Source of the DNA: Dehalococcoidia bacterium
GTDB lineage: Bacteria > Chloroflexota > Dehalococcoidia > Lucifugimonadales > Australimonadaceae
NCBI GenBank assembly: GCA_965248495.1
Contig: CBDFJL010000003.1
Span: 924,852-988,851, forward strand
Direction of reading: 5' to 3'
Length of the DNA stretch: 64,000 bases
Part shown: one piece after another, positions 2,520-61,139 of the stretch
How positions within the stretch are numbered: position 1 is the stretch's first letter
Layout of the letters: each line of letters starts with the position of its first letter
The notes under the pieces: generated by a model
What the model saw: only the letters and a program-made list of their open reading frames with translations
What the model was told of the DNA's origin: nothing
Databases searched by the model: none
Program-made: the position numbers and the translations under genes

Positions 2520-2609
2520 TGGCGGAGGGAGTGGGATTCGAACCCACGATGCCCTTGCGGGCATAGCGGTTTTCAAGACCGCCGCATTCGTCCACTCTGC
2601 CATCCCTCC
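2520..2609 (-). tRNA. tRNA-Ser (anticodon UGA), CCA encoded
   Basis: The reverse complement reads GGAGGGATGGCAGAGTGGACGAATGCGGCGGTCTTGAAAACCGC-long variable arm-GTGGGTTCGAATCCCACTCCCTCCGCCA. Anticodon loop is CU-UGA-AA. It has a 7-bp acceptor stem and a long variable arm (class II). Confidence 0.9.
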
Positions 2610-2728: not shown

Positions 2729-3013
2729 ATGGCAGCGTTTGGCAAGGTCGAGGTCGAGATTTGCTACTGCGTACCCTGAGGGTACTTCGCGCTCGCCACG
2801 TGGATGGCGACCGAGTTCTGGCGAGGGAATGCGCCTGGCGACGTAGCGATTCGGATTACGCCGTCCGACGGCGGCGACCTGCGGGTCCTGCTCGACGGCG
2901 ACACGATCTACGACCGAGCCGGCGGGGAATACCCCAACCTCACGCAGGTCCTCGAGCTGAACATGGCGATCGCCGACCGCATCGTCCAGCTGGAGAGCGC
3001 CCCGAGCGGCTAG
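2729..3013 (+). CDS. Rdx (SelW/SelT/SelH-like) family predicted selenoprotein, CxxU motif, Sec codon at 2777-2779
   Basis: The track only shows 2804..3013. Reading the same frame upstream from ATG 2729 gives MAAFGKVEVEICYCVP-TGA-GYFALATWMATEFWRGN...GGDLRVLLDGDTIYDRAGGEYPNLTQV. This parallels the Rdx pattern VEIxYCxxC/U...W...G.FEV.vdGelifsk...g.FP. Confidence 0.7.
2793..2810 (+). promoter_or_regulatory. Candidate SECIS-like hairpin for the Rdx gene
   Basis: Stem tcgcc/ggcga with loop ACGUGGAU, starting 13 nt after the UGA. Separately, the UGA itself lies in the loop of the perfect palindrome GTACCC-TGA-GGGTAC (2771-2785). Confidence 0.35.
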
Positions 3014-4742: not shown

Positions 4743-6026
4743 ATGGGAGTGCGCCTGGTCGGCCTACTGATGCTCATCGCCGTCGCAATGCTGGTGAGCG
4801 CGTGCGGCAGTTCCTCGGACGGCGTGCGGGTGTCGGTGGCCGAAGCCGCGCTAACCAGCGAGCCGACACCGCCCGCGCCCGCAACGCCGACAGCGACTGC
4901 GAGCCCGATCGCGACCGCAATCGCGACGCCCACCCCCGCGCTGACCCCGGCACCAATCGGCGCGCCGATACCCACGCCGACACCCAAGCAGGCTGGCGAC
5001 GCATCGGCACCTTCGACGCCGACACCTCTCGCGCCAACGCCAACGCAGGCGGCGACGGCGGCGCCTGCGGCGAATCCGACGCCGACGGCCACCATCGCAC
5101 CGCGCTACACGAACGGCGGAGGGGGCGGCTTCGTCGTGCTCGACGACCCCGCGTTCGTCCCCGCCTCGCGGGCCGGCCACGTCGCCGACGGCGACCTCGT
5201 CCTCGGCTACAACGGAGGGGCGCAGGCACGGGCCTACCCGGTGTCGATGATGTGGCTCCATCACATCGTGAACGACACGGTGCTTGGCGATCCGCTGCTC
5301 GTCACCTACTGAATACTCTGTAGATCGGGGGTCGGGTACGACCCCGTGTTGGAGAGTGGCGAGCGGGTCCGCTTCGACCTTCTCGGCCTGTACAAGGGCG
5401 TGTTCCTGATGCGTGACCGTGCCACCGGCTCGGTCTGGGCCCACCTCGACGGCTTCGCGTCCCAGGGCCCGCTGGCAGGGCAGCGCCTCGACTTCGTGTC
5501 CCTGCCGCAGATGACGTGGGGCGAGTGGCGGCAATCGCATCCCGACACGCTGGTGCTCGATGCGAACACGCCGTGGAGCGCCAACTACGGCGACCCCGGC
5601 CAGTTCTCCGATCCGACGCTGGCCAAGTTCGCCGACAATCGTCTGCCCTGGGACGCGCTGGTGGTTGGGGTCGAGGCCAACAGCGCCTACATGGGCTTTC
5701 CGCTCGCCGCGCTGACGGGCGTCGGTGGCTACACCAACACGACGGTGGGTGGCGTGCCCGTGCTCGTGACCTACGACGCTGCAACGCAGACGGGCATCGC
5801 CCACAGCCGCGTCGTCGAAGGCCAGGCGCTGGATTTCTCGTTAGCACCGGGCTTCTTCGGCCGCCTAACCCTCCAGGACGCGCAGACGGGGTCCAAGTGG
5901 GACGCGAGCGGGACGGCCATCGAGGGCCCGCTGAGCGGGACCCAGCTCACCTTCGTCCCGTCCTTCATCTCGGCGTGGTACGGCTGGTCGGCCTACCACC
6001 CGCAGACCGACCTGTTCGACGGCTAA
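4743..6026 (+). CDS. DUF3179 family lipoprotein, predicted selenoprotein (UxxC), Sec codon at 5310-5312
   Basis: Track ORFs 4716..5312 and 5346..6026 share one frame and are separated only by TGA. Read-through gives ...MWLHHIVNDTVLGDPLLVTY-U-ILCRSGVGYDPVLESGERVRFDLLGLYKGVFLMRDRATGSVW.... Lipobox MGVRLVGLLMLIAVAMLVSAC follows ATG 4743, then a PT-rich linker. Confidence 0.75.
5326..5346 (+). promoter_or_regulatory. Candidate SECIS-like hairpin for DUF3179 copy 1
   Basis: Stem GGGGUC/GACCCC (5328-5333 with 5340-5345), loop GGGUAC. The stem begins 15 nt after the UGA. Confidence 0.45.
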
Positions 6027-27261: not shown

Positions 27262-27530
27262 GCGCACTTTCAATAAGTTTCCGCAACGAAGGGAAGTAGT
27301 AGGGGACTCCTCGTCCAAGCGAGCCGGCGGTTGGTGAAAGGCCGGTGGCGTCAGGGCCCCGAACTCGTCCCGGAGCGGCCGACCTGAACGTTTTGAGCGG
27401 CTCAAAGCGTGTAGGGTAGGCGGAGCGCGCCGATACCGCGCCTAACGAAGCGCCTCCCAGCGGGCTGGGGGGAACGAGGGTGGTACCGCGGGCCTGGCCC
27501 GTCCCTTAATTGAGGGGCGGGTTTTTTTGT
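27262..27530 (+). promoter_or_regulatory. T-box leader, probable Leu (CUC) specifier, with intrinsic terminator
   Basis: T-box sequence AACGAGGGTGGTACCGCGG at 27473-27491. Stem I elements include the AGCGA bulge, a GGTGAAAG distal loop, and a specifier loop with AGUAGUA opposite GAA-CUC-G (CUC at 27364-27366). The terminator cccgtccc-ttaattga-ggggcggg plus T7 lies at 27497-27528. Confidence 0.8.
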
Positions 27531-27571: not shown

Positions 27572-29278
27572 ATGCGGCTAACCGGTGGGCAGATGGTATG
27601 CGAGGCGTTGGTCCGCGAAGGCGTGGACCTCGTGTTCGGCCTGCCCGGCGGCGCTATCCTGCCGCTCTATCAGACGCTGCCAGAGTATCCGCAGATACGG
27701 CACGTCTTGGTTCGCCACGAGCAGAATGCGGGCCACGCGGCGGACGGCTACGCTCGGGCCACCGGCAAGGTCGGCGTCTGCATCGCAACGTCGGGGCCCG
27801 GCGCCACCAACCTCGTGACCCCGCTGGCCACGGCCATGATGGACTCCGTCCCGGTCGTCGCCATCACTGGGCAGGTGCCCCGCGCGGCCATCGGCAGGGA
27901 TGCGTTCCAAGAGGTCGATACCACCGGCATCACGTTGCCCATCACCAAGCACAACTACCTGGTCATGCACGCGTCCGAGTTGCCGCAAGTGCTCAAGGAG
28001 GCGTTCCACATCGCGCGAACGGGGCGGCCCGGGCCGGTGCTCATCGACATCCCCCGCGACGTGCAGGCCGAGCGCGCTGAGTTCGACTACCCGGAGAACG
28101 CCGACATGCGCTCCTACCGGCCGACGCTCGAAGGGCATGCGCAGATGATCAAGCGCGCGGCGCGGCTCATCCGCGAGTCGCAGCGCCCGCTCATTCTTGC
28201 CGGCCACGGCGTCCTGATTTCCGGTGCGTCCGCCGAGCTTCGCGAGCTCGCCGAGAAGGCGCAGGTGCCGGTCATCACAACGCTGCTCGGCATCAGCGCG
28301 TTCGACGAGGGCCACGTGCTCTCGATGGGCATGCCCGGCATGCACGGGATGGCCTATACCAATTGGGCCATCGAGCGCTCCGATCTGCTGATCGCGATCG
28401 GCATGCGATTCGACGACCGGGTCACCGGGCGCATCAGCACCTTTGCGCCCAACGCGAAGGTGGTTCACATAGATGTGGACCCCGCCGAGGTCGGCAAGAA
28501 CGTGCGCGTGACCGTGCCCATCGTCGGGGACGCGAAACGTGTGCTGCATGTGCTCGTCCGCGAGACGGAGCCCGCGACACACCCCGCCTGGCTGCACGAG
28601 ATCGACGAGCTGCGCACCGAGCATCCGTCGGACCGGCTCCGCGAGACCGATAAGCTGTTGCCCCAGCACGTCGTCCGCGAGCTTTCTGACGTCACGCGGG
28701 GCAATGCCATCGTCGTCACCGGCGTGGGCCAGCACCAGATGTGGGCTGCGCAGCACTTCCGCTTCCGCGAGCCCAACAGCTGGCTGACGTCCGGCGGGCT
28801 CGGGACCATGGGTTACGAGGTTCCCGGCGCTATGGGCGCGGCCATGGGCCGACCAGACAAGGTGGTCTGGAGCATCGCCGGTGACGGCGGTTTTCAGATG
28901 ACCATGTCGGAGCTGGCGACGATCGTGGAGAACAAGGTGCCGGTGAAGTTCGTCATCCTGAACAACAACAACCTGGGGCTTGTAAGACAGCTGCAGGATC
29001 TCTTCCACGATGGCTCGCGCGTCGCGTCCGGGTACACGGGAAACCCCGACTTCGTGAAGCTGGCCGAGGCCTACGGTATCTGGAGCACTCGCGTCACCGA
29101 ACGCTCGCAGGTGCGGGACGCCATAGAAGCGGCGATGGCCCACGACGGACCCGCGCTGATCGACTTTAAGGTGGAGCCGGATGAGAACGTCTACCCACAC
29201 GTGCCCGCCGGCGAAAGCGTGGCCGAGATGATCGAGGGGCAGCCGCTGCCCGATGGGGAGGGCGCATGGCAACGATAG
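27572..29278 (+). CDS. ilvB: Acetolactate synthase large subunit
   Basis: ThDP-enzyme motifs are present (GGLGTMGYEVPGAMGA...GDGGFQM...NN), with full-length AHAS-like sequence. Confidence 0.95.
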   Translation: MRLTGGQMVCEALVREGVDLVFGLPGGAILPLYQTLPEYPQIRHVLVRHEQNAGHAADGYARATGKVGVCIATSGPGATNLVTPLATAMMDSVPVVAITGQVPRAAIGRDAFQEVDTTGITLPITKHNYLVMHASELPQVLKEAFHIARTGRPGPVLIDIPRDVQAERAEFDYPENADMRSYRPTLEGHAQMIKRAARLIRESQRPLILAGHGVLISGASAELRELAEKAQVPVITTLLGISAFDEGHVLSMGMPGMHGMAYTNWAIERSDLLIAIGMRFDDRVTGRISTFAPNAKVVHIDVDPAEVGKNVRVTVPIVGDAKRVLHVLVRETEPATHPAWLHEIDELRTEHPSDRLRETDKLLPQHVVRELSDVTRGNAIVVTGVGQHQMWAAQHFRFREPNSWLTSGGLGTMGYEVPGAMGAAMGRPDKVVWSIAGDGGFQMTMSELATIVENKVPVKFVILNNNNLGLVRQLQDLFHDGSRVASGYTGNPDFVKLAEAYGIWSTRVTERSQVRDAIEAAMAHDGPALIDFKVEPDENVYPHVPAGESVAEMIEGQPLPDGEGAWQR

Positions 29279-48268: not shown

Positions 48269-50860
48269 ATGACCACGACCGCGGGCAATGAGCAGCAGCG
48301 TGTCATCCTACAGATCGAGGGCATGACGTGCGCCGCGTGCGTTAGCACGGTGCAGACTGCTCTTGAGGGCGTCGGTGGGGTGAGTGTCGCCACGGTCGCC
48401 CTGGGCGTCGACACGGCGACGGTCTCCTATGACCCCAGCTCCACCGAGGTGCGCCAGCTGGTCGGCGCCGTCAAGTCCGTGGGCTACGGCACCGCCGCTG
48501 ACACCGTGGCGTTCGTGGTACCGGGCCTGAGTGATGGGGCCGCAGGAAGGTCGATCGAGAGCCGCGTGGGCGCGTTGGACGGCGTCGTCGCAGTGTCGGC
48601 CAACCCTGCCACCGAGCAGGTGGCCGTCTCATATATCCGCGGCGCCGTGACCATGCAGTCCATCCAGAGCGTGATCGAGGAGTCCGGCCTGCGCGTGGAG
48701 GGCATCGAGAACGCAGACCAACTCGCGACGGATCTGGAGCGGTTGGCCCGCACCAAGGAGATCGCGTCGCTGCGCCGAAAGGTCGCAATTGCGGGCGCTG
48801 TTGGGGCCATCATCATGGTCCTCATGTACGTCCCTCTTGAGGCTCTTAACCTCACTGAGTTCCAGCTTAACTTCATTCTGTGGGGGATGGCCACCCCGGT
48901 GCAGTTCTGGATCGGCGCGACTTTTTATCGGGGCGCTTGGGGCGCGCTGAAACACGGGACGTCCAACATGAACACGTTGGTCGCCCTCGGCACGAGCGTG
49001 GCCTACGTCTACAGCACCAGCCTCACCTTCTTCGGGAGCTTCTATAGCGACGCCCATCTGCTGCACGCCCACAGTACGTTTGGCCACAGCACCGGGACGT
49101 ACTTCGACGCCTCCGCGATCATCATTGGTCTCATCCTGTTCGGCCGGTTCTTGGAGGCTCGCGCCAAAGGCCAGACCACGGCGGCTATCCGAACGCTTAT
49201 CGGCCTGCAGCCGCGGACCGCCCGCGTGGTCCGCGCTGGGGAGGAAGTCGACGTACCCATAGCCGACGTCGTACTGGGCGATTTTGTCATCGTACGGCCC
49301 GGAGAGCGGGTCCCCGTGGACGGAGAGATGACAGAGGGCTTCTCGACGGTGGATGAGAGCATGCTGACCGGCGAGAGTATCCCCGTGGAGAAGCAGCCCG
49401 GGGCCGTCGTCTATGGAGGCACCGTCAACGCCGTGGGAAGCTTCACCTTCCGCGCCACGAAGGTGGGCAGTGACACGGCGCTGGCCCAGATCATCCGGCT
49501 GGTCCAGCAGGCGCAGGGCTCGAAGGCGCCGATCCAGCGCCTCGCCGACACCGTGGCTGCCTACTTCGTGCCCGCCGTCCTCGGCATCGCCCTCGTTACC
49601 GGCCTCGTCTGGTACTTTGCCGGCCCCCCTCCTCAGTTCGCCATCGCTATCTTGAATGTTGTCGCGGTCTTGGTGATCGCCTGCCCCTGCGCGCTTGGCC
49701 TCGCCACGCCCACCGCAATCATGGTGGGTACAGGCAAGGGGGCGGAGCACGGCATCCTCGTCCGAGATGCCGGGGCGTTGGAGCAGGCCCACAAGATCCA
49801 AATAGTCGTGTTGGACAAGACGGGCACCGTCACGCGCGGGCAGCCAGTGCTGACGGACGTGCTTGCGCGCAGCGTCAGCGAGGCTGAGCTGCTGCGGCTG
49901 GCGGCCTCCGTCGAGCGCCTGAGTGAGCATCCGCTCGCTGCGGCCATCGTAGACGGGGCGCGCGAGCGAGGGCAGGAGCCGGTGCCTGTCGAGGCGTTCG
50001 AGGCGGCGGTGGGACTCGGCGTGCGGGCGCAGGTGGACGGTGAGTGGATCGCCGTCGGCAGTATGGGGCTCATGGCGCAGGCGGGCATCGAGCTTGATGC
50101 CGCGACCCAGAGCACGGCGCGGCTGCTCTCCGAGCGCGGACGCACGGCGATGGTCGTGCTCCGCGGCGAAGAGGTCATTGGTGTGCTGGCCGTCGCCGAT
50201 ACGCCGCGGGACGAGGCGGCGGAGGCAGTGGCGCGCCTGCAACAGATGGGTATCCAAGTGCTGATGCTCACGGGCGACACCAAGGCCACCGCATTGGCGA
50301 TGGCCGAGCAGGTCGGCATCGACGACGTGATCGCCGAGGTGCTCCCCGGGCAGAAGGCGGCGGAGATCAAGCGGCTCCAGGCGAGCGGAAAGCGTGTCGC
50401 CATGGTCGGAGACGGCATCAACGACGCTCCAGCCTTGGTGCAGGCCGACGTGGGCATAGCCATCGGCACCGGCACGGACGTCGCCATGGAAGCGGCCGAC
50501 GTCACGCTGATGCGCGGCGACCTGAGGGGCGTGAGTGACGCCATCTTCCTTTCGAAGTCCACGATCCGGACGATCAAGCAGAATCTGTTCTGGGCATTCT
50601 TTTACAACACTGCCCTCATCCCCATCGCCGCGGGTATGTTGTATCTGGTGTTCAGCGATGGGGTGCCCGCCGGGTGGCTGCGGTATCCTCTGGGCGATTT
50701 CGGGTTCCTGAACCCGGTTATGGCGGCAGGGGCAATGGCCTTCAGCTCTGTCTCCGTCGTGACGAACTCTCTCCGCCTCCGGCGGTGGAAGCCCGCGAGC
50801 GGGGGTGGCCTGTCGGGCCGTCCCGCAACACAGCCCGCTCCGACTCCGGCGCTTCGGTGA
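48269..50860 (+). CDS. copA: Copper-translocating P1B-type ATPase
   Basis: The N-terminal HMA domain carries GMTCAACV and a second HMA-like domain lacks CxxC. Also present are TGES, CPC ([11 protein letters not shown]), DKTGT and GDGINDAP. Confidence 0.95.
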
Positions 50861-56085: not shown

Positions 56086-56673
56086 CTACAAGATCTCGTC
56101 GATGAGCTCGTTCATCTTGCTCTTGGTCAGCAGCCCGGCGAAGCGGCTCTTGACCACGCCGTCCTTGGTGATGAAGTAGGTGGTCGGCATGCCGAGGATC
56201 TGGTACGAGCGAACGACGTTCTCATCGAAGGTGGTCCCTACCGGGTAGTCGACACCGAGCTCGCGGATGAGCTCCAGCCCTTCCGCTCGCGTGCCGAGCA
56301 GCTGGAACGGCCCGATGTCGATGCCGAGCAGCGTGACCTCGGCACCCCGCGCCTCGTAGACCTCCTGGAAGTCGGGCATCTCGGCCCGGCACGGCGGGCA
56401 CAGCCCAGCCCAAAAGTTGAGCACGAGCGGCTTGCCGGTGTGTTCGAGGATCGCCGTCAACGTGACTTCGTCCCCGCCCAGGATGTCGTCGCCCTGGTAC
56501 GTGGAGATGGTGAGGTTGGGCACGCCAAGGCTTATGCCATCGGCGGCCGGCTCGCCCCCATCGCTCCCACCACAGGCGGTTGCGATGAGCGCGACCAGCA
56601 GGAATACGGAGGCCATTGCCGTCATGCGGCCGCGTGGCCTTCGCGCTCGCGCCATTCGGATAAGACTTGGCAT
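56086..56673 (-). CDS. TlpA/ResA-like thiol:disulfide oxidoreductase lipoprotein (CPPC)
   Basis: Lipobox LIATAC. Thioredoxin fold with LVLNFWAGLCPPCRAEMP. It lies 44 nt downstream of the DUF3179 gene on the same strand. The start could be 56673, 56655 or 56625. Confidence 0.85.
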   Translation of the reverse strand: MPSLIRMARARRPRGRMTAMASVFLLVALIATACGGSDGGEPAADGISLGVPNLTISTYQGDDILGGDEVTLTAILEHTGKPLVLNFWAGLCPPCRAEMPDFQEVYEARGAEVTLLGIDIGPFQLLGTRAEGLELIRELGVDYPVGTTFDENVVRSYQILGMPTTYFITKDGVVKSRFAGLLTKSKMNELIDEIL

Positions 56674-56717: not shown

Positions 56718-57839
56718 CTAGGGGGTCGCTTCCGCCCCGCCGTACAACCCGGTGTCGGGGTGGAAGTCGGTCCACGCGAACCAGAAGGACACGAACGAGG
56801 CCAACTGCGTCAGGCGGGTCCCCGCGAGCTCGCCGTCCTTGGCGACCCCGCTGACGCGCGTCCACGTCGAGCCGGTCTGAGTATCGCGCATCTCCAGGTT
56901 ACCGACGGGAGTGAAGCTCAACACCCGCCCATCGGCCAATGTGCGGTCGAACACGGCCTGCGTGCCCGCCTGTGGATCGAGGGTGACGACGATTTCTCGG
57001 CCGGAGTAGCTGTCGTTCACGATCTGCTCTTCCGCCAGCGCGCGGAACCCGTACGCCCGGGCCTGGTCGCCCCAGTCGAGCCCAACCACAAGCGTCTTCG
57101 TCGGCAGCCGGTCGTCGGGTACCGCTTCGCCGAGGATGCCGGCTGAGCCGCTTTGATAGTAACTCCGGTAGGGGTCGTCCCCGCTGCCGCGGCCGAAGCG
57201 CCGGTCCAGCAGCTTGGTGTCCGGGTGCCGTTCCACCCAAGCTGCCCACGTGGTCAGCGGGGCGGGGATCAGTTCGAGGCGCTCCCCTGCCAGCTCGCCC
57301 TCGACGGCCTCCTGGAGGAATTGACTCCAGAAGGTGTCGGTCTGGTGGTCGTACATGACGACGGCGTTGCGGATCAGCTTGCCGGATACGCCGAAGGTGA
57401 GCTCCCTCCCGGCGACCTCGCGGGCAAAGACCATGCCCGTAAAGCAGAGCGGTCACCACGTGACCATGACTGGTCTCCCGCCAACCGTATCGTTGACGAC
57501 TTCGTGACTGCTCAGGTGCGCTGTGGCGTAGGCCCGGTGGTCGCCGTTGATGGACAGCCCGATGACGAGCTCTTGCGGCAGCATCTGGGACGCCGCTACC
57601 GCGCCGTCGACGAACATCGGGTCAAGGATCGCTGGGATCGCGTCCTTCCCGAGAACCGTCCGGATCTCGAACTCGCGTAATGGCGTGGACGCGTCGGCGC
57701 CGGCACTGGCCGCGGGGAGGGCCACGGTGGTACTGCGGTTGAGCAGCCGCCAAACGGGGCTGCCGGGAATCACGGCGAGGAATGCCAATACGACGACGCC
57801 CATGACTACGGTCGCTGCGATGGTGGTGCGGCTCAGCAA
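56718..57839 (-). CDS. DUF3179 family membrane-anchored protein, predicted selenoprotein (UPLC), Sec codon at complement(57453..57455)
   Basis: Track ORFs 57453..57839 and 56718..57434 are in the same frame. Read-through gives ...HLSSHEVVNDTVGGRPVMVTW-U-PLCFTGMVFAREVAGRELTFGVSGKLIRNAVVMYDHQTDTFWSQ.... N-terminal TM anchor; TTG start. Confidence 0.75.
57421..57439 (-). promoter_or_regulatory. Candidate SECIS-like hairpin for DUF3179 copy 2
   Basis: On the minus strand, CGGGCA-UGGUCUU-UGCCCG forms a 6-bp stem with a 7-nt loop containing GGUC. It begins 13 nt after the UGA. Confidence 0.5.
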
Positions 57840-58038: not shown

Positions 58039-59826
58039 CTAGACCGCGCACTCACCCTCGCCGCGCTCCAGCTTGTAGAGCACGGTCTTGCCCCAGTCCA
58101 TGTAGTAGTCCAGCGTCTCTTTGCCCAGTGGACCGATCTCGCGGAACTCCGAGAGGATGGCCTCAAAAGCGTCATTGCCCGTGCGGTCGACGAAGTCGTT
58201 GAACTCCTCACCATCTCGTCGCTGGTCGCGGTAGTAATCGAGGAGCCGCCGAATGGCACTCGGGACGTGTTTGGAAGGCACCTTGGCCTTGACTCGCTGG
58301 CCGTATTTGAGGCCGCCCCGCTCGTAGGCGCCGCCAAGGTAGACCTCGAAAGCGGGGATCTGGTTGCCCCCGGGCCCTTTGATGGAGGCTCCCTGGAAGC
58401 CGATGTTGGCCAGATGGTGCCTGCCACAGCCGTTGGGGCAGCCGGACGCCTTGATGTGCAGCTTCTTGATGGCCGGGTCTTCCAACAGGTCGTCCCAGTC
58501 CATCAGCGCATCCGTGACCGCCCGGTTCAGGCCCATGGAGGACGTGATGCCGAGCTTGCAGCTATCCGTGCCGGGGCAAGACGTCATGTCGGTGATCGAG
58601 TAGACCTCGGCCTCCGCCAGTCCGATGGCGCCAAGCTCGCGCCATACGGCGTAGAGAGCCCCATCGGGAATCCAGCGCAGCGCCAGGTTCTGCTCGGCGC
58701 TGAGCCCGAAGCTGGCCGAGCCGTGGTCGCGGGTGATCTGGGCGATGGCCCGGAACTGGTCCGCCGTCAGGTCCCCTCGCGGAACCTTCACGTACACCGC
58801 GTTGTAGCCCTCCTGGATTTGCGCGACGACGTTGGTCTTCCGCCAGAGAAGAAACTCCTTGTCCCCGGAGCCCTCCCCGGTGTCCGCCAGGGGAGCCGGA
58901 GGCGTCTCTTGAGCATTTGCCATCAGCGGGCTGGGGTCGAAGCTCCCCTCGTTGGCCCACGGCTTCTCCAGCTCGTCCTCGACCATCTGCCTGACGGCGT
59001 CGATGCCACGCCGGTGAATGAGTACTTTGATCCGCGCCATCATCTTGTTCTGACGCAGCTCGTCGGCGGCATCGAACACCCGGAGGATCGCCTCGGTAAC
59101 CCGCAGGTAGTCCTCGACCGCGACGAACTCGTAGAGCGTTTCGGCGTTCTTGGCGAGGATCGAGGTGCCTCCGCCGACGACCATCTTGAAGCCCCTGTGT
59201 TCGACCCCGTCAATCTCTCGCACGCGCGCCACGAAGCCGAGATCGTGCATCCCCACGATGGCAGGGTCGTGCTCGCCGGAGGAGAAGGCCGTCTTGAACT
59301 TACGCGGCATCGATTGGGCGATGGGGTGCCGCACGAACTTGCGGACGTACGCCACAAGGTAGGGCGTGATGTCAAAGGCCTGCTCCGGGTCGATGCCCAT
59401 CATCGGGTCAGCGTTCACGTTGCGGACCGTGTTCCCGCACGCCTCGCGGGTGGAGAGCCCGGACTCGCCGAGGATGCGCATCACGTTGGGAGCGTCCTCC
59501 AGCGCCACGTGGTGGTACTGGATGTTCTCCCGGGTCGTGATATGCCCCATCTTGAGGGGAGCAAGCTCGTCCGCAATGACCGCCAGCGCGTCCATCTGGT
59601 CTGCCGTTCCCAGCCCTCCGGGCAGCTTGACGCGCACCATTTGCGCATCGGGCTGGCGCTGTCCATAGATGCCCCGCCGCAGACGCCACGGGGTGAACTG
59701 CTTGTCGTCGATCTCACCCGCCCGGAAGCGCTTGGCCTCGACCTCGAACTCCTCGGCCTCGACCGCCAGGTACGGGATGACGCCCTTGGTGTTGTCGACT
59801 AGGCCGGCGTTGCGTGCAATGGCCAT
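58039..59826 (-). CDS. sir: Sulfite/nitrite reductase hemoprotein (ferredoxin-dependent type)
   Basis: Two NIR/SIR repeats are present. The siroheme-[4Fe-4S] Cys cluster reads TSCPGTDSCKLG...ASGCPNGCGRHH. GGAGGG RBS precedes ATG 59826. Confidence 0.9.
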   Translation of the reverse strand: MAIARNAGLVDNTKGVIPYLAVEAEEFEVEAKRFRAGEIDDKQFTPWRLRRGIYGQRQPDAQMVRVKLPGGLGTADQMDALAVIADELAPLKMGHITTRENIQYHHVALEDAPNVMRILGESGLSTREACGNTVRNVNADPMMGIDPEQAFDITPYLVAYVRKFVRHPIAQSMPRKFKTAFSSGEHDPAIVGMHDLGFVARVREIDGVEHRGFKMVVGGGTSILAKNAETLYEFVAVEDYLRVTEAILRVFDAADELRQNKMMARIKVLIHRRGIDAVRQMVEDELEKPWANEGSFDPSPLMANAQETPPAPLADTGEGSGDKEFLLWRKTNVVAQIQEGYNAVYVKVPRGDLTADQFRAIAQITRDHGSASFGLSAEQNLALRWIPDGALYAVWRELGAIGLAEAEVYSITDMTSCPGTDSCKLGITSSMGLNRAVTDALMDWDDLLEDPAIKKLHIKASGCPNGCGRHHLANIGFQGASIKGPGGNQIPAFEVYLGGAYERGGLKYGQRVKAKVPSKHVPSAIRRLLDYYRDQRRDGEEFNDFVDRTGNDAFEAILSEFREIGPLGKETLDYYMDWGKTVLYKLERGEGECAV

Positions 59827-59851
59827 GGTGGACCCTCCGGTCTTGAACAAT

Positions 59852-59967: not shown

Positions 59968-59997
59968 AAGCTAACACCCGTCGGAGCGGATTGTCAA
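59968..59997 (-). promoter_or_regulatory. Predicted sir promoter
   Basis: On the minus strand, TTGACA (59997-59992), an 18-nt spacer, then TGtTAGCTT (hexamer 59973-59968). Confidence 0.5.
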
Positions 59998-60018
59998 CGC
60001 GCGAGGTCGACAATCCGC
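59986..60018. promoter_or_regulatory. 10-bp perfect inverted repeat GCGGATTGTC-N13-GACAATCCGC overlapping the sir -35
   Basis: The arms lie at 59986-59995 and 60009-60018, in the divergent region between sir and the 60082 gene. Confidence 0.45.
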
Positions 60019-60081
60019 CAGGCCACGGCCTGGGGCACGGGGCTCCGGTGATAGACTGGCGCAGCCCGGATTGGGGGTGTC

Positions 60082-60438
60082 GTGCGGCAGGTCGCCTTCC
60101 TCGTTGGCTTGTTCGGTGCGGCGCTCGCGCTGTTGGGCTCGCTGGTGGCCATATTCGTTGGCGCACTCGGCCTGGTCACCGGCGGGGGGTTCGATGCGGG
60201 GGACCAGGCGTTATTCGGGTTGCTGGCCGTCGGTGCGGCATTGGTTGGCGGCCTCGGCGCGGTCGTCTCGCTCTTTCGGCCTCGGGCCGGTGCGCTGATG
60301 CTTCTGGGCTCGGCGGTGGCCGGGCTCCTCGCGATCCCGACGTACTACATCTTCGGAGCGGTGCTGCTGTTGGTCGGGGCCTTCTTCGCGTACCGCGCAG
60401 ACAGGGAGGCGGGCCGCAGTATCATGGGCGAGCGATGA
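60082..60438 (+). CDS. Small integral membrane protein (four TM, Gly/Ala/Leu-rich)
   Basis: MRQVAFLVGLFGAALALLGSLVAIFVGALGLV.... ATGA overlap with the following chdC-like gene. Confidence 0.6.
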   Translation: MRQVAFLVGLFGAALALLGSLVAIFVGALGLVTGGGFDAGDQALFGLLAVGAALVGGLGAVVSLFRPRAGALMLLGSAVAGLLAIPTYYIFGAVLLLVGAFFAYRADREAGRSIMGER

Positions 60439-61139
60439 CCACCGACGTGACCCCGCAGATCGTGCGCTACGCTTTCTACAAGGCTGACCCGGCCTGGCGC
60501 CGGCTACCGGAGGACGCCCGCTCGCGCAGCAAACGGGAGTTTGCCAGCGTCCTGGCCGAGCTCGAGTCACAATTGACGCTGCGCACCTACAGCCTGATGG
60601 GGATGCGCGCCGACGCCGAGCTGATGGTCTGGTCCGTCAGTGCCGACCTCGAGGGCCAGCAGGTCCTGGCCACCAGCTTGGCCCGCACCGAGCTTGGCGC
60701 CTACTTGGACCTGACCCACTCCTTCCTGGCCATGACGCGGCGCTCCAGGTACATCGACGACCATGGGCACGATGGGCACGAAGGGCCGGAGAGCCGCACG
60801 CGCATAAAGCCCATGGACCGGCCGTACCTGTTCGTCTACCCGTTCGTGAAGACCCACGACTGGTACCAGCTCTCCGGCGAGGAGCGCCAGCGGATGATGG
60901 AGGCGCACTTCACCATCGGCCACCTCTACCCCGAGGTGAAGATTCACACCTCCTACTCGTACGGGCTGGACGACCAAGAGTTCGTGCTCGGGTTCGAGAC
61001 GTCCGAGCCGCAGCGCTTTCTGGAGCTGGTGATGGAGCTGCGGCACGCTGAGCAGCGCCCGTACACCGAGCGGGACGTGCCCATCTTCACCTGCCTGCTG
61101 AAGACCGTCGAGGAGGCGCTCGACGACCTGGGGGGCTGA
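60435..61139 (+). CDS. chdC: Chlorite dismutase family protein, probable coproheme decarboxylase (HemQ/ChdC)
   Basis: YAFYKADPAWRRLPED...YLFVYPFVKTHDWYQLSGEERQRMMEAHFTIG...YSYGLDDQEFVLGFETSEP. Confidence 0.85.
   Translation: MTTDVTPQIVRYAFYKADPAWRRLPEDARSRSKREFASVLAELESQLTLRTYSLMGMRADAELMVWSVSADLEGQQVLATSLARTELGAYLDLTHSFLAMTRRSRYIDDHGHDGHEGPESRTRIKPMDRPYLFVYPFVKTHDWYQLSGEERQRMMEAHFTIGHLYPEVKIHTSYSYGLDDQEFVLGFETSEPQRFLELVMELRHAEQRPYTERDVPIFTCLLKTVEEALDDLGG

What the first reader, a model, noticed from the sequence alone, without database searches (positions are those of the whole stretch)
56718..57839. DUF3179 gene read through an in-frame UGA: UPLC replaces the family's CPLC motif (predicted selenoprotein)
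Track ORFs 57453..57839 and 56718..57434 are in the same frame and are separated by a single TGA. The joined protein reads ...EVVNDTVGGRPVMVTW-U-PLC-FTGMVFAREVAGRELTFGVSGKLIRNAVVMYDHQTDTFWSQ.... As I remember DUF3179 (PF11376), the conserved block is ...VTYCPLCGT..F.R...G..L.FG.SG.L...L.MYD..T.S.W.Q. That places the UGA exactly on the first Cys of the CxxC. A 6-bp hairpin with loop UGGUCUU starts 13 nt downstream (57421-57439). Both the position and the GGUC-type loop recall bacterial SECIS elements. A stop at a redox Cys, followed by intact homologous sequence in frame, is the classic Sec signature rather than gene decay. The protein has an N-terminal membrane anchor, so it would be an exported selenoprotein.
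Basis: partly seen in the sequence, partly recalled or inferred. Interest (0 to 1): 0.85.

Follow-up and report, generated by a model that had tools for sequence, protein, structure and literature searches.

The report
Known-type DUF3179 selenoprotein gene
This is one intact gene for a membrane-anchored DUF3179 protein whose in-frame UGA almost certainly encodes selenocysteine.

Summary
On the minus strand a single TGA (57455..57453) joins two same-frame ORFs into a 373-residue protein. That protein matches Pfam DUF3179 end to end (E 3.9e-88). The TGA sits on the first Cys of the family's CPLC motif.

In 80 related loci from Dehalococcoidia/Chloroflexota genomes, 80 of 81 W-x-PLC gene copies carry TGA at this column, never TAA or TAG. 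The hairpin 13 nt downstream (57439..57421) is paired in 98% of cells, and four of its six pairs show compensatory changes. It meets the published bacterial SECIS model. Seven Cys-form homologues lack it. Both halves of the gene are under purifying selection, and the start codon that gene callers use after the TGA is not conserved.

The window holds two more in-frame-TGA genes at known Sec positions: a second DUF3179 paralogue (5310) and an Rdx/SelW-like gene (2777). Seven relatives carry a Sec-containing selD 3-6 kb from their DUF3179 gene.

selA, selB, selD and tRNA-Sec could not be checked for this genome. DUF3179 (UxxC/T) has been a catalogued predicted selenoprotein family since 2007, so this is a further, mis-annotated member. 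Its biochemical function remains unknown.

The parts
56718..57839 (-). Complete DUF3179 selenoprotein gene: TTG start, 373 sense codons including Sec129, TAG stop.
   Evidence: single in-frame TGA. (PF11376, profile 1-292 of 292, E 3.9e-88). (pN much lower than pS on both sides of the TGA).
57453..57455 (-). UGA codon read as selenocysteine (residue 129), the first position of the U-P-L-C motif.
   Evidence: (the column is Cys in at least 90% of homologues). (TGA in 80 of 81 orthologous gene copies, never TAA or TAG).
57444..57446 (-). Codon of Cys132, the invariant second residue of the UxxC motif.
   Evidence: C132 is invariant in 68 sequences.
57421..57439 (-). SECIS-type hairpin: 6-bp stem CGGGCA/UGCCCG with 7-nt loop UGGUCUU. 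There are 13 nt between the UGA and the stem, and 19 nt between the UGA and the loop.
   Evidence: present in the MFE fold. (98.2% of cells paired, 4 of 6 pairs with changes on both sides, slid controls 14-44%). (hairpin MFE -10.8 kcal/mol). (published bSECIS criteria).
57417..57443 (-). Possible 3-bp lower extension of the hairpin, across a 1x1 mismatch.
   Evidence: these three pairs are paired in about 80-84% of sequences and vary almost only on one side, which is weak support.
57765..57827 (-). N-terminal hydrophobic segment (residues 5-25), a signal anchor or signal peptide.
   Evidence: Kyte-Doolittle 17-mer score 2.83. 75 of 78 orthologues have such a segment, and 20 have a lipobox-like motif. 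Homologue P0006 has the lipobox LAAC.
56086..56673 (-). TlpA/ResA-like thioredoxin with a CPPC motif and an N-terminal signal, 44 nt downstream on the same strand. Candidate redox partner.
   Evidence: AhpC-TSA, Redoxin and ResA/TlpA models; the same gene lies directly downstream in the 8 closest loci only (L001-L006, L013, L040).

Best explanation
Bases 57839..56718 (minus strand) are one gene for a 373-residue DUF3179 protein with selenocysteine at residue 129.

How the UGA is read (inferred from the established bacterial Sec pathway): when the ribosome reaches UGA 57455..57453, the hairpin 13 nt downstream (57439..57421) acts as a bacterial SECIS element. It recruits SelB carrying Sec-tRNA(Sec), so Sec is inserted instead of the chain being terminated.

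Where the protein sits (inferred): the N-terminal hydrophobic segment places the all-beta DUF3179 domain outside the cytoplasmic membrane.

What it does (inferred, weakest step): the U129-P-L-C132 motif is the reactive centre, most likely a selenenylsulfide/selenol-thiol redox pair. The TlpA-like thioredoxin encoded just downstream is a plausible reductant. The substrate is unknown.

Shown here: the sequence anatomy, conservation of TGA, covariation of the hairpin, purifying selection, family membership, and other Sec-type genes in the window.

Not shown here: actual Se incorporation, SelB binding, export, redox chemistry, and the TlpA partnership.
For: 1. A single in-frame TGA joins two halves of a full-length PF11376 match.

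2. The TGA column is the first Cys of the conserved CPLC motif.

3. In 80 loci from Dehalococcoidia/Chloroflexota genomes, 80 of 81 VTW-x-PLC gene copies have TGA and one has TGT. No copy has TAA or TAG.

4. The hairpin is paired in 98.2% of 450 cells. Compensatory changes occur at 4 of 6 pairs: GC to UA, GC to CG, CG to AU, and AU to GC. One of these couples synonymous ACG to ACU (Thr) with CGN to AGA (Arg). Slid controls give 14-44% pairing.

5. Seven Cys-form homologues pair at only 1-4 of the 6 positions.

6. The hairpin meets the published bSECIS model: 7-nt loop, 6-bp stem, G at loop position 2, 19 nt spacing, MFE -10.8 kcal/mol.

7. dN/dS is 0.10-0.36 upstream and 0.20-0.46 downstream of the TGA against 11 orthologues.

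8. Only 12 of 80 orthologues have ATG at the 'MVFAR' position, and only 27 of 80 have any start codon within 10 codons after the TGA.

9. The same window has two more in-frame TGAs at known Sec positions. One is a second DUF3179 paralogue (TGA 5310..5312, PF11376 E 4.3e-58, hairpin with GGUA loop). The other is an Rdx/SelW-like CxxU gene (TGA 2777..2779, PF10262 E 4.7e-9).

10. selD lies 3-6 kb from the DUF3179 gene in 7 related loci, each with TGA at the catalytic site. The L005 copy scores 369 bits on TIGR00476 against a cut-off of 125.

11. DUF3179 UxxC/T is a catalogued predicted selenoprotein family. Dehalococcoidia MAGs are listed with 46-49 selenoprotein genes.
Against: - No tRNA-Sec, selA, selB or selD is present in the 64-kb window or in the flanks of the related loci, apart from selD in 7 loci. 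The rest of this genome could not be reached.
- No Rfam SECIS family matches the region, even at E up to 10.
- The single-sequence fold is not better than shuffles (z -1.18).
- The hairpin lies in coding sequence, so part of its conservation reflects the conserved peptide FTG..AR.
- Nothing experimental exists for this family as far as the two reviews show.
- The TlpA neighbour is conserved only in the closest subclade, 8 of 80 loci.
Confidence: 0.92

Rival explanations
1. Gene decay or an assembly/sequencing error: the TGA is a recent nonsense mutation, or a miscalled TGC/TGT, in a dying DUF3179 gene.
For: A single stop splits an otherwise intact gene. Public gene callers list only the 238-residue C-terminal piece (P0001).
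Against: The same TGA is at the same column in 80 gene copies from 77 other genome assemblies, and TAA or TAG never occurs there. Purifying selection acts on both sides. A covarying hairpin follows the TGA. A second paralogue in the window has the same feature.
Confidence: 0.01
2. A split gene: translation ends at the UGA and the C-terminal 238 residues are made separately from the ATG six codons further on (MVFAR...), giving two polypeptides.
For: An ATG lies at the 7th codon after the TGA in the window. About 50 database clusters of 232-241 residues start at exactly that Met.
Against: That ATG is present in only 12 of 80 orthologues; the others have ATT, ATC or ATA. 53 of 80 have no ATG, GTG or TTG within 10 codons. 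The CPLC motif and one beta-hairpin of the fold would be cut in two. The C-terminal piece would lack the signal segment.
Confidence: 0.02
3. The UGA is decoded here as another amino acid. This could be Cys, through a tRNA-Sec-like tRNA charged with Cys or when selenium is scarce. It could be Trp or Gly, through near-cognate read-through or a reassigned genetic code.
For: The Sec machinery was not seen for this genome. TGA is an unusually rare stop in the window, 6 of 38 confident genes.
Against: TGA still ends 6 of 38 genes. Only three in-frame TGAs occur in roughly 14,000 confident codons, and each is at a known Sec/Cys position of a known selenoprotein family. That pattern is the opposite of a reassigned code. 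The conserved hairpin is the hallmark of SelB-dependent decoding. Relatives carry selD that itself contains the UGA.
Confidence: 0.04

Closest known systems
DUF3179 domain-containing selenoprotein (PF11376, motif UxxC/T). Listed in the prokaryotic selenoprotein tables of PMC9312934 and PMC13188914, which credit Zhang and Gladyshev 2007 (PMC1976440, Olavius algarvensis symbiont metagenome).
   Same: Same Pfam family, full-length match. Sec is at the first position of the UxxC motif. One Sec per protein, Cys-containing homologues exist, and a stem-loop follows the UGA.
   Different: The first report came from a deltaproteobacterial worm symbiont. Here the gene is in a high-G+C, Dehalococcoidia-like Chloroflexota genome, where the Sec form is nearly fixed in the clade sampled (80 of 81 W-x-PLC copies; four further Y-C-PLC genes in the same loci are Cys forms). 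I could not see the 2007 alignment figure, so I cannot say which of that paper's family names corresponds to DUF3179.
Consensus bacterial SECIS model (bSECISearch; criteria as quoted in the Fig. 2 legend of PMC13188914).
   Same: Loop of 3-9 nt (here 7). Upper stem of 4-16 bp (here 6). G in the first two loop positions followed by G or U (UGGUCUU). Spacing of 16-37 nt from UGA to loop (here 19). MFE at or below -7.5 kcal/mol (here -10.8)..
   Different: No Rfam SECIS covariance model matches. The GGUC of the E. coli fdhF loop (recalled from memory) is present in the window but not conserved in orthologues. In most of them, G reaches loop position 2 only if the outer U-A of the loop is counted as a seventh pair.
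Extracytoplasmic CxxC thiol-disulfide systems with a TlpA/ResA-type thioredoxin (established knowledge: TlpA and ResA reduce specific periplasmic or exported client proteins).
   Same: An exported or anchored protein with a C/UxxC motif is encoded directly upstream of a TlpA/ResA-like CPPC thioredoxin on the same strand. The pairing is kept in the 8 closest genomes.
   Different: DUF3179 does not have a thioredoxin fold. The AF2 model of Cys homologue P0004 is all-beta, and its only PDB resemblance is weak, to Rieske-type domains (E 0.025, TM 0.5-0.63 on the target). The client-reductant relationship is inferred from adjacency only and is absent in most of the clade.
Rieske-type [2Fe-2S] ferredoxin domain / NirD small subunit (fold only).
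   Same: The best structural matches of the DUF3179 model are Rieske ferredoxins and NirD-like proteins, about 90-115 aligned residues. The domain is internally duplicated.
   Different: The CxH...CxxH ligand set is absent. The His 17 residues before the Sec is replaced by R, Y or N in orthologues. The Foldseek E-values are weak, and a profile search of PDB sequences finds nothing.

Membership tests
Bacterial selenoprotein gene (Sec-UGA plus bSECIS) | In-frame UGA aligned with a conserved Cys of homologues | tested here: met
   Cys forms VTWCPLC and VTYCPLC are seen.
Bacterial selenoprotein gene (Sec-UGA plus bSECIS) | Homologous coding sequence continues in frame on both sides of the UGA, under purifying selection | tested here: met
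   dN/dS 0.10-0.36 upstream and 0.20-0.46 downstream; one HMM match spans the site.
Bacterial selenoprotein gene (Sec-UGA plus bSECIS) | UGA (not UAA or UAG) is conserved at the site in orthologues of other organisms | tested here: met
   80 TGA, 1 TGT, 0 TAA/TAG among 81 gene copies.
Bacterial selenoprotein gene (Sec-UGA plus bSECIS) | Stem-loop just downstream that satisfies the bSECIS consensus (loop 3-9 nt, stem 4-16 bp, G in the first two loop positions, 16-37 nt spacing, MFE at or below -7.5) | tested here: met
   for the window. 69 of 80 orthologues reach the MFE cut-off. Covariation is shown. Cys forms lack the hairpin.
Bacterial selenoprotein gene (Sec-UGA plus bSECIS) | Match to a curated SECIS covariance model (Rfam) | tested here: not met
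   no SECIS family at E up to 10. Bacterial SECIS elements are known to be too diverse for these models (PMC13188914), so this carries little weight.
Bacterial selenoprotein gene (Sec-UGA plus bSECIS) | tRNA-Sec, selA, selB and selD in the same genome | not testable with these tools
   None is in the 64-kb window. The genome is not in the searchable contig collections. Indirect support comes from two more Sec-type genes in the window and from Sec-containing selD in 7 relatives plus L083.
Bacterial selenoprotein gene (Sec-UGA plus bSECIS) | Selenium actually incorporated (75Se labelling or mass spectrometry) | not testable with these tools
   An experiment is required.
DUF3179 (Pfam PF11376) | Score above the Pfam gathering threshold over the whole domain | tested here: met
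   296.1 bits against a cut-off of 27, profile positions 1-292 of 292.
DUF3179 selenoprotein subfamily (UxxC/T) | Sec at the first position of the conserved CxxC/T motif | tested here: met
   The motif is as listed.
Thioredoxin-fold thiol oxidoreductases | Thioredoxin fold carrying the CxxC motif | tested here: not met
   an all-beta model with no thioredoxin-fold matches. Pfam gives only DUF3179. It may work like a CxxC redox protein, but it is not a member of this family.
Rieske [2Fe-2S] proteins | CxH...CxxH cluster ligands | tested here: not met
   there is no conserved His pair, and only the U/CxxC pair is conserved. The fold resemblance is weak.

The most novel reading that the evidence does not exclude
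In Dehalococcoidia/SAR202-type Chloroflexota the Sec form of DUF3179 is almost fixed. It could be a distinct kind of extracytoplasmic selenoenzyme. Its fold would be a duplicated Rieske-like beta module that has lost the iron-sulfur ligands and carries a selenol-thiol (UxxC) centre. In the window's subclade a dedicated TlpA-like thioredoxin would recycle it. If so, a large and ecologically abundant bacterial lineage depends on selenium for an unknown reaction at the cell surface. That dependence is invisible in current annotation, which splits these genes into fragments.
Probability: 0.2. Interest if true: 0.5.

Novelty: new member of a known kind. Interest (0 to 1): 0.25.

Why it matters
The practical value is in annotation. 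This gene, its paralogue at 4743..6026 and the Rdx gene at 2729..3013 are selenoprotein genes that standard gene callers truncate. In one search, about 50 protein clusters of 232-241 residues all began at the same false 'MVFAR' start.

The gene also marks this genome as a selenium user. It adds to the evidence that Dehalococcoidia carry sizeable selenoproteomes.

It does not open a new question. DUF3179 as a UxxC selenoprotein family has been in the literature since 2007. What remains unknown is what the family does. The conserved Sec, the membrane anchoring and the TlpA neighbour are hints for future biochemistry.

Tried and rejected
- Rfam scans: the whole window at gathering thresholds and 57300..57560 at E up to 10. 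No SECIS family matched; only chance hits appeared.
- ARAGORN on the window and on 1.3 Mb of related loci. No tRNA-Sec was found.
SelA and SelB gave no hits anywhere. SelD hit 7 loci, and one of those was confirmed with NCBIfam.
- Exact look-ups of three window proteins to reach the rest of the genome. None is on record. Cluster look-up gave no names or accessions.
- A contig-length fingerprint: I searched SelD homologues for one on a 2,642,258-bp contig, the contig that carries P0001. None was in the best 120, which is uninformative. The search did link SelD to the contigs of several other DUF3179 hits.
- The flank of a SelD on a 1.5-Mb contig. No selA or selB was nearby.
- De novo clustering of neighbours across 80 loci. 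Apart from the TlpA-like gene in the closest subclade, the neighbours are housekeeping genes (APRT, RecF, amidase, Sir2, RidA). No conserved operon exists.
I modelled the closest Cys homologue, P0004, instead.
- PDB fold search gave only weak Rieske-type matches. The viral library gave one uncharacterised giant-virus protein. A profile search of PDB sequences found nothing.
- Sigma-70 promoter scan: none found. The one 'terminator-like' hit is a mini-hairpin that contains the UGA itself. It is fully paired in 55 of 80 orthologues. I treat it as a likely by-product of the Val-Thr-Trp-Sec-Pro codons.
- A Rieske-like metal site (His112 plus U129 plus C132) was considered and rejected, because the His is R, Y or N in orthologues.

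Full report
**1. The observation**

On the minus strand, the reading frame that opens at TTG 57839 and closes at TAG 56718 contains exactly one internal stop, TGA at 57455..57453. The translation reads ...HEVVNDTVGGRPVMVTW*PLCFTGMVFAREVAGRELTFGVSGKLIRNAVVMYDHQTDTFWSQ....

With the stop written as Cys, the 373-residue product matches Pfam PF11376 (DUF3179) over the complete profile: positions 1-292 of 292, 296 bits, E 3.9e-88. NCBIfam has no model for it.

I aligned it with 67 full-length homologues. The column under the TGA is Cys in at least 90% of them, and the Cys three residues later is invariant. The consensus is VAVTWCPLCFTAIVFDR.

The hairpin CGGGCA-UGGUCUU-UGCCCG is at 57439..57421, 13 nt after the TGA.

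**2. Is it more than chance? Orthologues**

A protein search returned the window's own C-terminal piece (P0001, 238 residues, on a 2.64-Mb contig). It also returned about 50 clusters of 232-241 residues that all begin at the same Met (MVFAR...). These are 56-86% identical to the query. The full-length Cys-containing homologues are only 41-58% identical. That pattern suggested that gene callers truncate a whole clade at the same stop.

A scan of one genome per species returned 80 loci, all from Dehalococcoidia/Chloroflexota metagenome-assembled genomes. The best was 65-67% identical, so the window's own genome is not in that collection.

In those loci plus the window, 81 gene copies carry the motif [VI]-T-[WR]-x-P-L-C. 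The x codon is TGA in 80 and TGT in one. It is never TAA or TAG. The single TGT copy is a tandem paralogue next to a TGA copy (L039). A few further Cys forms read VTYCPLC (L035, L037, L056).

**3. The hairpin**

I aligned 75 distinct 57-nt stretches starting at the Trp codon; no gaps were needed. The six pairs of the window's hairpin form a standard pair in 98.2% of 450 cells. When the 3' partners are slid by 1-3 columns, pairing falls to 14-44%. No shuffle out of 500 reaches the observed pairing or covariation score.

Four of the six pairs change on both sides:

| Pair change | Sequences | Codon-level reading |
|---|---|---|
| GC to UA | 16 | Thr ACG to ACU with Arg CGN to AGA, synonymous on both sides |
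| GC to CG | 9 | Gly to Ala on one arm, Ala to Gly on the other |
| CG to AU or GU | 11 | not examined |
| AU to GC | 4 | seen in three different sequence subtypes |

Three further pairs below a 1x1 mismatch are kept in about 80% of sequences but vary almost only on one side.

Seven Cys-form homologues can pair at only 1-4 of the six positions, which is background level. They include the two closest full-length ones, P0004 and P0006, whose DNA I fetched.

The published consensus for bacterial SECIS elements is quoted from PMC13188914. The window's element meets every criterion:

| Criterion | Model | Window |
|---|---|---|
| Apical loop | 3-9 nt | 7 nt |
| Upper stem | 4-16 bp | 6 bp |
| G in the first two loop positions | required | position 2, followed by G |
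| UGA to loop | 16-37 nt | 19 nt |
| MFE | at or below -7.5 kcal/mol | -10.8 kcal/mol |

69 of 80 orthologues reach the energy cut-off. Only U1, G3 and U6 of the loop are invariant, and these are also constrained by the Ile/Met, Val/Gly and Tyr/Phe codons. No Rfam SECIS family matches. The single-sequence fold is unremarkable (z -1.18).

**4. One gene, not two, and not decay**

Against 11 orthologues, non-synonymous differences are far rarer than synonymous ones on both sides of the TGA. dN/dS is 0.10-0.36 for the 70 codons upstream and 0.20-0.46 downstream. Synonymous sites are near saturation.

The ATG that gene callers use for the downstream piece exists in only 12 of 80 orthologues. 53 of 80 have no ATG, GTG or TTG within ten codons of the TGA.

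The genome does not use a reassigned code. TGA ends 6 of 38 confident genes. In-frame TGAs in coding-like frames are limited to three sites.

**5. Does this genome decode Sec?**

The window has no tRNA-Sec, selA, selB or selD. I could not reach the rest of the genome.

Two independent observations in the window speak for the trait.

- A second DUF3179 paralogue lies on the plus strand at about 4743..6026. It is 33% identical to the first and has TGA at 5310..5312 in the same alignment column (...LLVTY*ILCRSG...). The joined protein matches PF11376 across the site (E 4.3e-58). A 7-bp hairpin with loop GGUA begins so that 22 nt separate the UGA from the loop.
- A 94-codon gene at 2729..3013 (plus strand) reads MAAFGKVEVEICYCVP*GYFALATW.... 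It matches the Rdx (SelT/SelW/SelH) family above the Pfam threshold, with the TGA at the family's CxxU position. A 6-bp hairpin with loop CGUGGA again lies 19 nt from the UGA. The two NCBIfam models for this family score below their cut-offs.

In relatives, seven of the 80 loci carry selD 3-6 kb from the DUF3179 gene. All seven have TGA at the catalytic position (CAG*AGK). The L005 copy, read through, scores 369 bits on TIGR00476 against a cut-off of 125. An eighth such selD is in the genome that holds the Cys-form homologue P0004.

A 2026 database paper lists Dehalococcoidia MAGs with 46 and 49 selenoprotein genes.

**6. What the protein is likely to do**

An N-terminal hydrophobic segment is present in 75 of 78 Sec-form orthologues, and 20 have a lipobox-like motif. 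P0006 has a clear lipoprotein signal. The domain is therefore most likely outside the cytoplasmic membrane.

An AlphaFold2 model of the closest full-length Cys homologue has mean pLDDT 90.2 and pTM 0.87. It is all-beta with two similar halves. BLASTP between the paralogues also shows the internal duplication.

The only PDB resemblance is weak, to Rieske-type ferredoxin and NirD domains (E 0.025, TM 0.5-0.63 on the target). The Rieske ligands are absent, and the nearby His is not conserved. Profile-to-PDB sequence search and the viral library add nothing.

A TlpA/ResA-like thioredoxin with a CPPC motif and its own signal starts 44 nt downstream on the same strand. The same arrangement holds in the eight closest loci but not in the rest of the clade, whose neighbours are unrelated housekeeping genes.

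My best reading is an anchored, extracytoplasmic selenol-thiol (UxxC) redox protein, possibly recycled by the TlpA-like protein. That is inference from anatomy. The substrate is unknown.

**7. Comparison with what is known**

[quoted passage not shown] Both credit Zhang and Gladyshev 2007 on the Olavius symbiont metagenome. In the part of the 2026 table that the tools returned, DUF3179 appears well after the 'Experimentally verified' heading, alongside families found by metagenome surveys. So I take it to be a computational prediction.

The present gene is therefore a further member of a known, computationally predicted selenoprotein family, in a lineage already reported to be selenoprotein-rich.

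What this analysis adds:

- the near-fixation of the Sec form in the Dehalococcoidia clade sampled;
- clean covariation support for its SECIS element, including coupled amino-acid swaps;
- the contrast with Cys forms;
- the extent of mis-annotation in public protein sets.

**8. Verdict**

Confidence that residue 129 is selenocysteine is about 0.92. The remaining doubt is the unseen Sec machinery and the lack of any experiment. Novelty is a new member of a known kind, and interest is low to moderate.

Noticed in passing
window 4743..6026 (+), TGA at 5310..5312: A second DUF3179 paralogue, 33% identical to the first, also has an in-frame TGA on the first Cys of its motif (LLVTY*ILCRSG). The joined protein matches PF11376 at E 4.3e-58. 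It has a lipoprotein-type signal and a long Pro/Thr/Ala linker. A 7-bp hairpin with loop GGUA lies 22 nt from the UGA. Cys forms of this 'CRSG' subtype occur in L013, L035, L037 and L056.
   Followed up: partly
window 2729..3013 (+), TGA at 2777..2779: A 94-codon Rdx (SelT/SelW/SelH-like) gene has TGA at the CxxU position (EICYCVP*GYFALATW). Pfam PF10262 gives E 4.7e-9, above threshold. The NCBIfam models score below their cut-offs. A hairpin UCGCCA/UGGCGA with loop CGUGGA lies 19 nt from the UGA.
   Followed up: partly
whole window: Stop codon use in 38 confident genes of this 67% G+C window is TAG 21, TAA 11 and TGA 6. By my own knowledge of typical stop codon use, TGA is unusually rare for such a G+C-rich genome.
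   Followed up: no
L005:7098-8084, L041:15881-16879, L068:7594-8595, L074:13758-14753, L076:13196-14191, L078:5002-6000, L079:13124-14119 (all minus strand in locus orientation); L083 upstream of 10001: selD (selenophosphate synthetase) genes lie 3-6 kb from the DUF3179 selenoprotein gene in seven relatives. Every one has an in-frame TGA at the catalytic site (CAG*AGK). Public SelD entries of this clade are N-terminally truncated to 304-315 residues.
   Followed up: partly
public protein collection (P0001-P0132): About 50 clusters of 232-241-residue 'DUF3179' proteins all start at the same false Met (MVFAR...). This is a systematic truncation of Sec-containing genes by gene callers.
   Followed up: yes
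L039:175 and 1345; L054:10217 and 12193; L071:1034 and 2259: These loci carry tandem DUF3179 copies. L039 has one Cys (TGT) and one Sec (TGA) copy side by side. L054 and L071 each have two Sec copies.
   Followed up: no
window 57450..57466 (-): A mini-hairpin GGUCAC-GUG-GUGACC contains the UGA in its 3' arm and was flagged as terminator-like. The 5-bp core GUCAC/GUGAC is fully paired in 55 of 80 orthologues. It may be a by-product of the Val-Thr-Trp-Sec-Pro codons.
   Followed up: partly
window 27277..27509 (+): A T-box leader (Rfam RF00230, 93.1 bits, just above the gathering score) lies upstream of a 568-residue ORF at 27572..29278.
   Followed up: no
window 2520..2609 (-): tRNA-Ser (anticodon UGA) lies about 120 nt upstream of the Rdx gene, on the opposite strand. 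It is the only tRNA in the window.
   Followed up: no
window 48269..50860 (+), 58039..59850 (-), 59991..61139 (+): The neighbourhood includes a heavy-metal (HMA-domain) P-type ATPase, a sulfite/nitrite reductase haemoprotein directly upstream of the DUF3179 gene, and a chlorite-dismutase-family protein. No conserved linkage to DUF3179 was seen across loci.
   Followed up: partly
DUF3179 domain, window protein residues about 73-200 and 244-363: The domain is an internal tandem duplication. The C-terminal half of one paralogue aligns with the N-terminal half of the other (E 1e-9), and only the first repeat keeps the U/CxxC motif.
   Followed up: no
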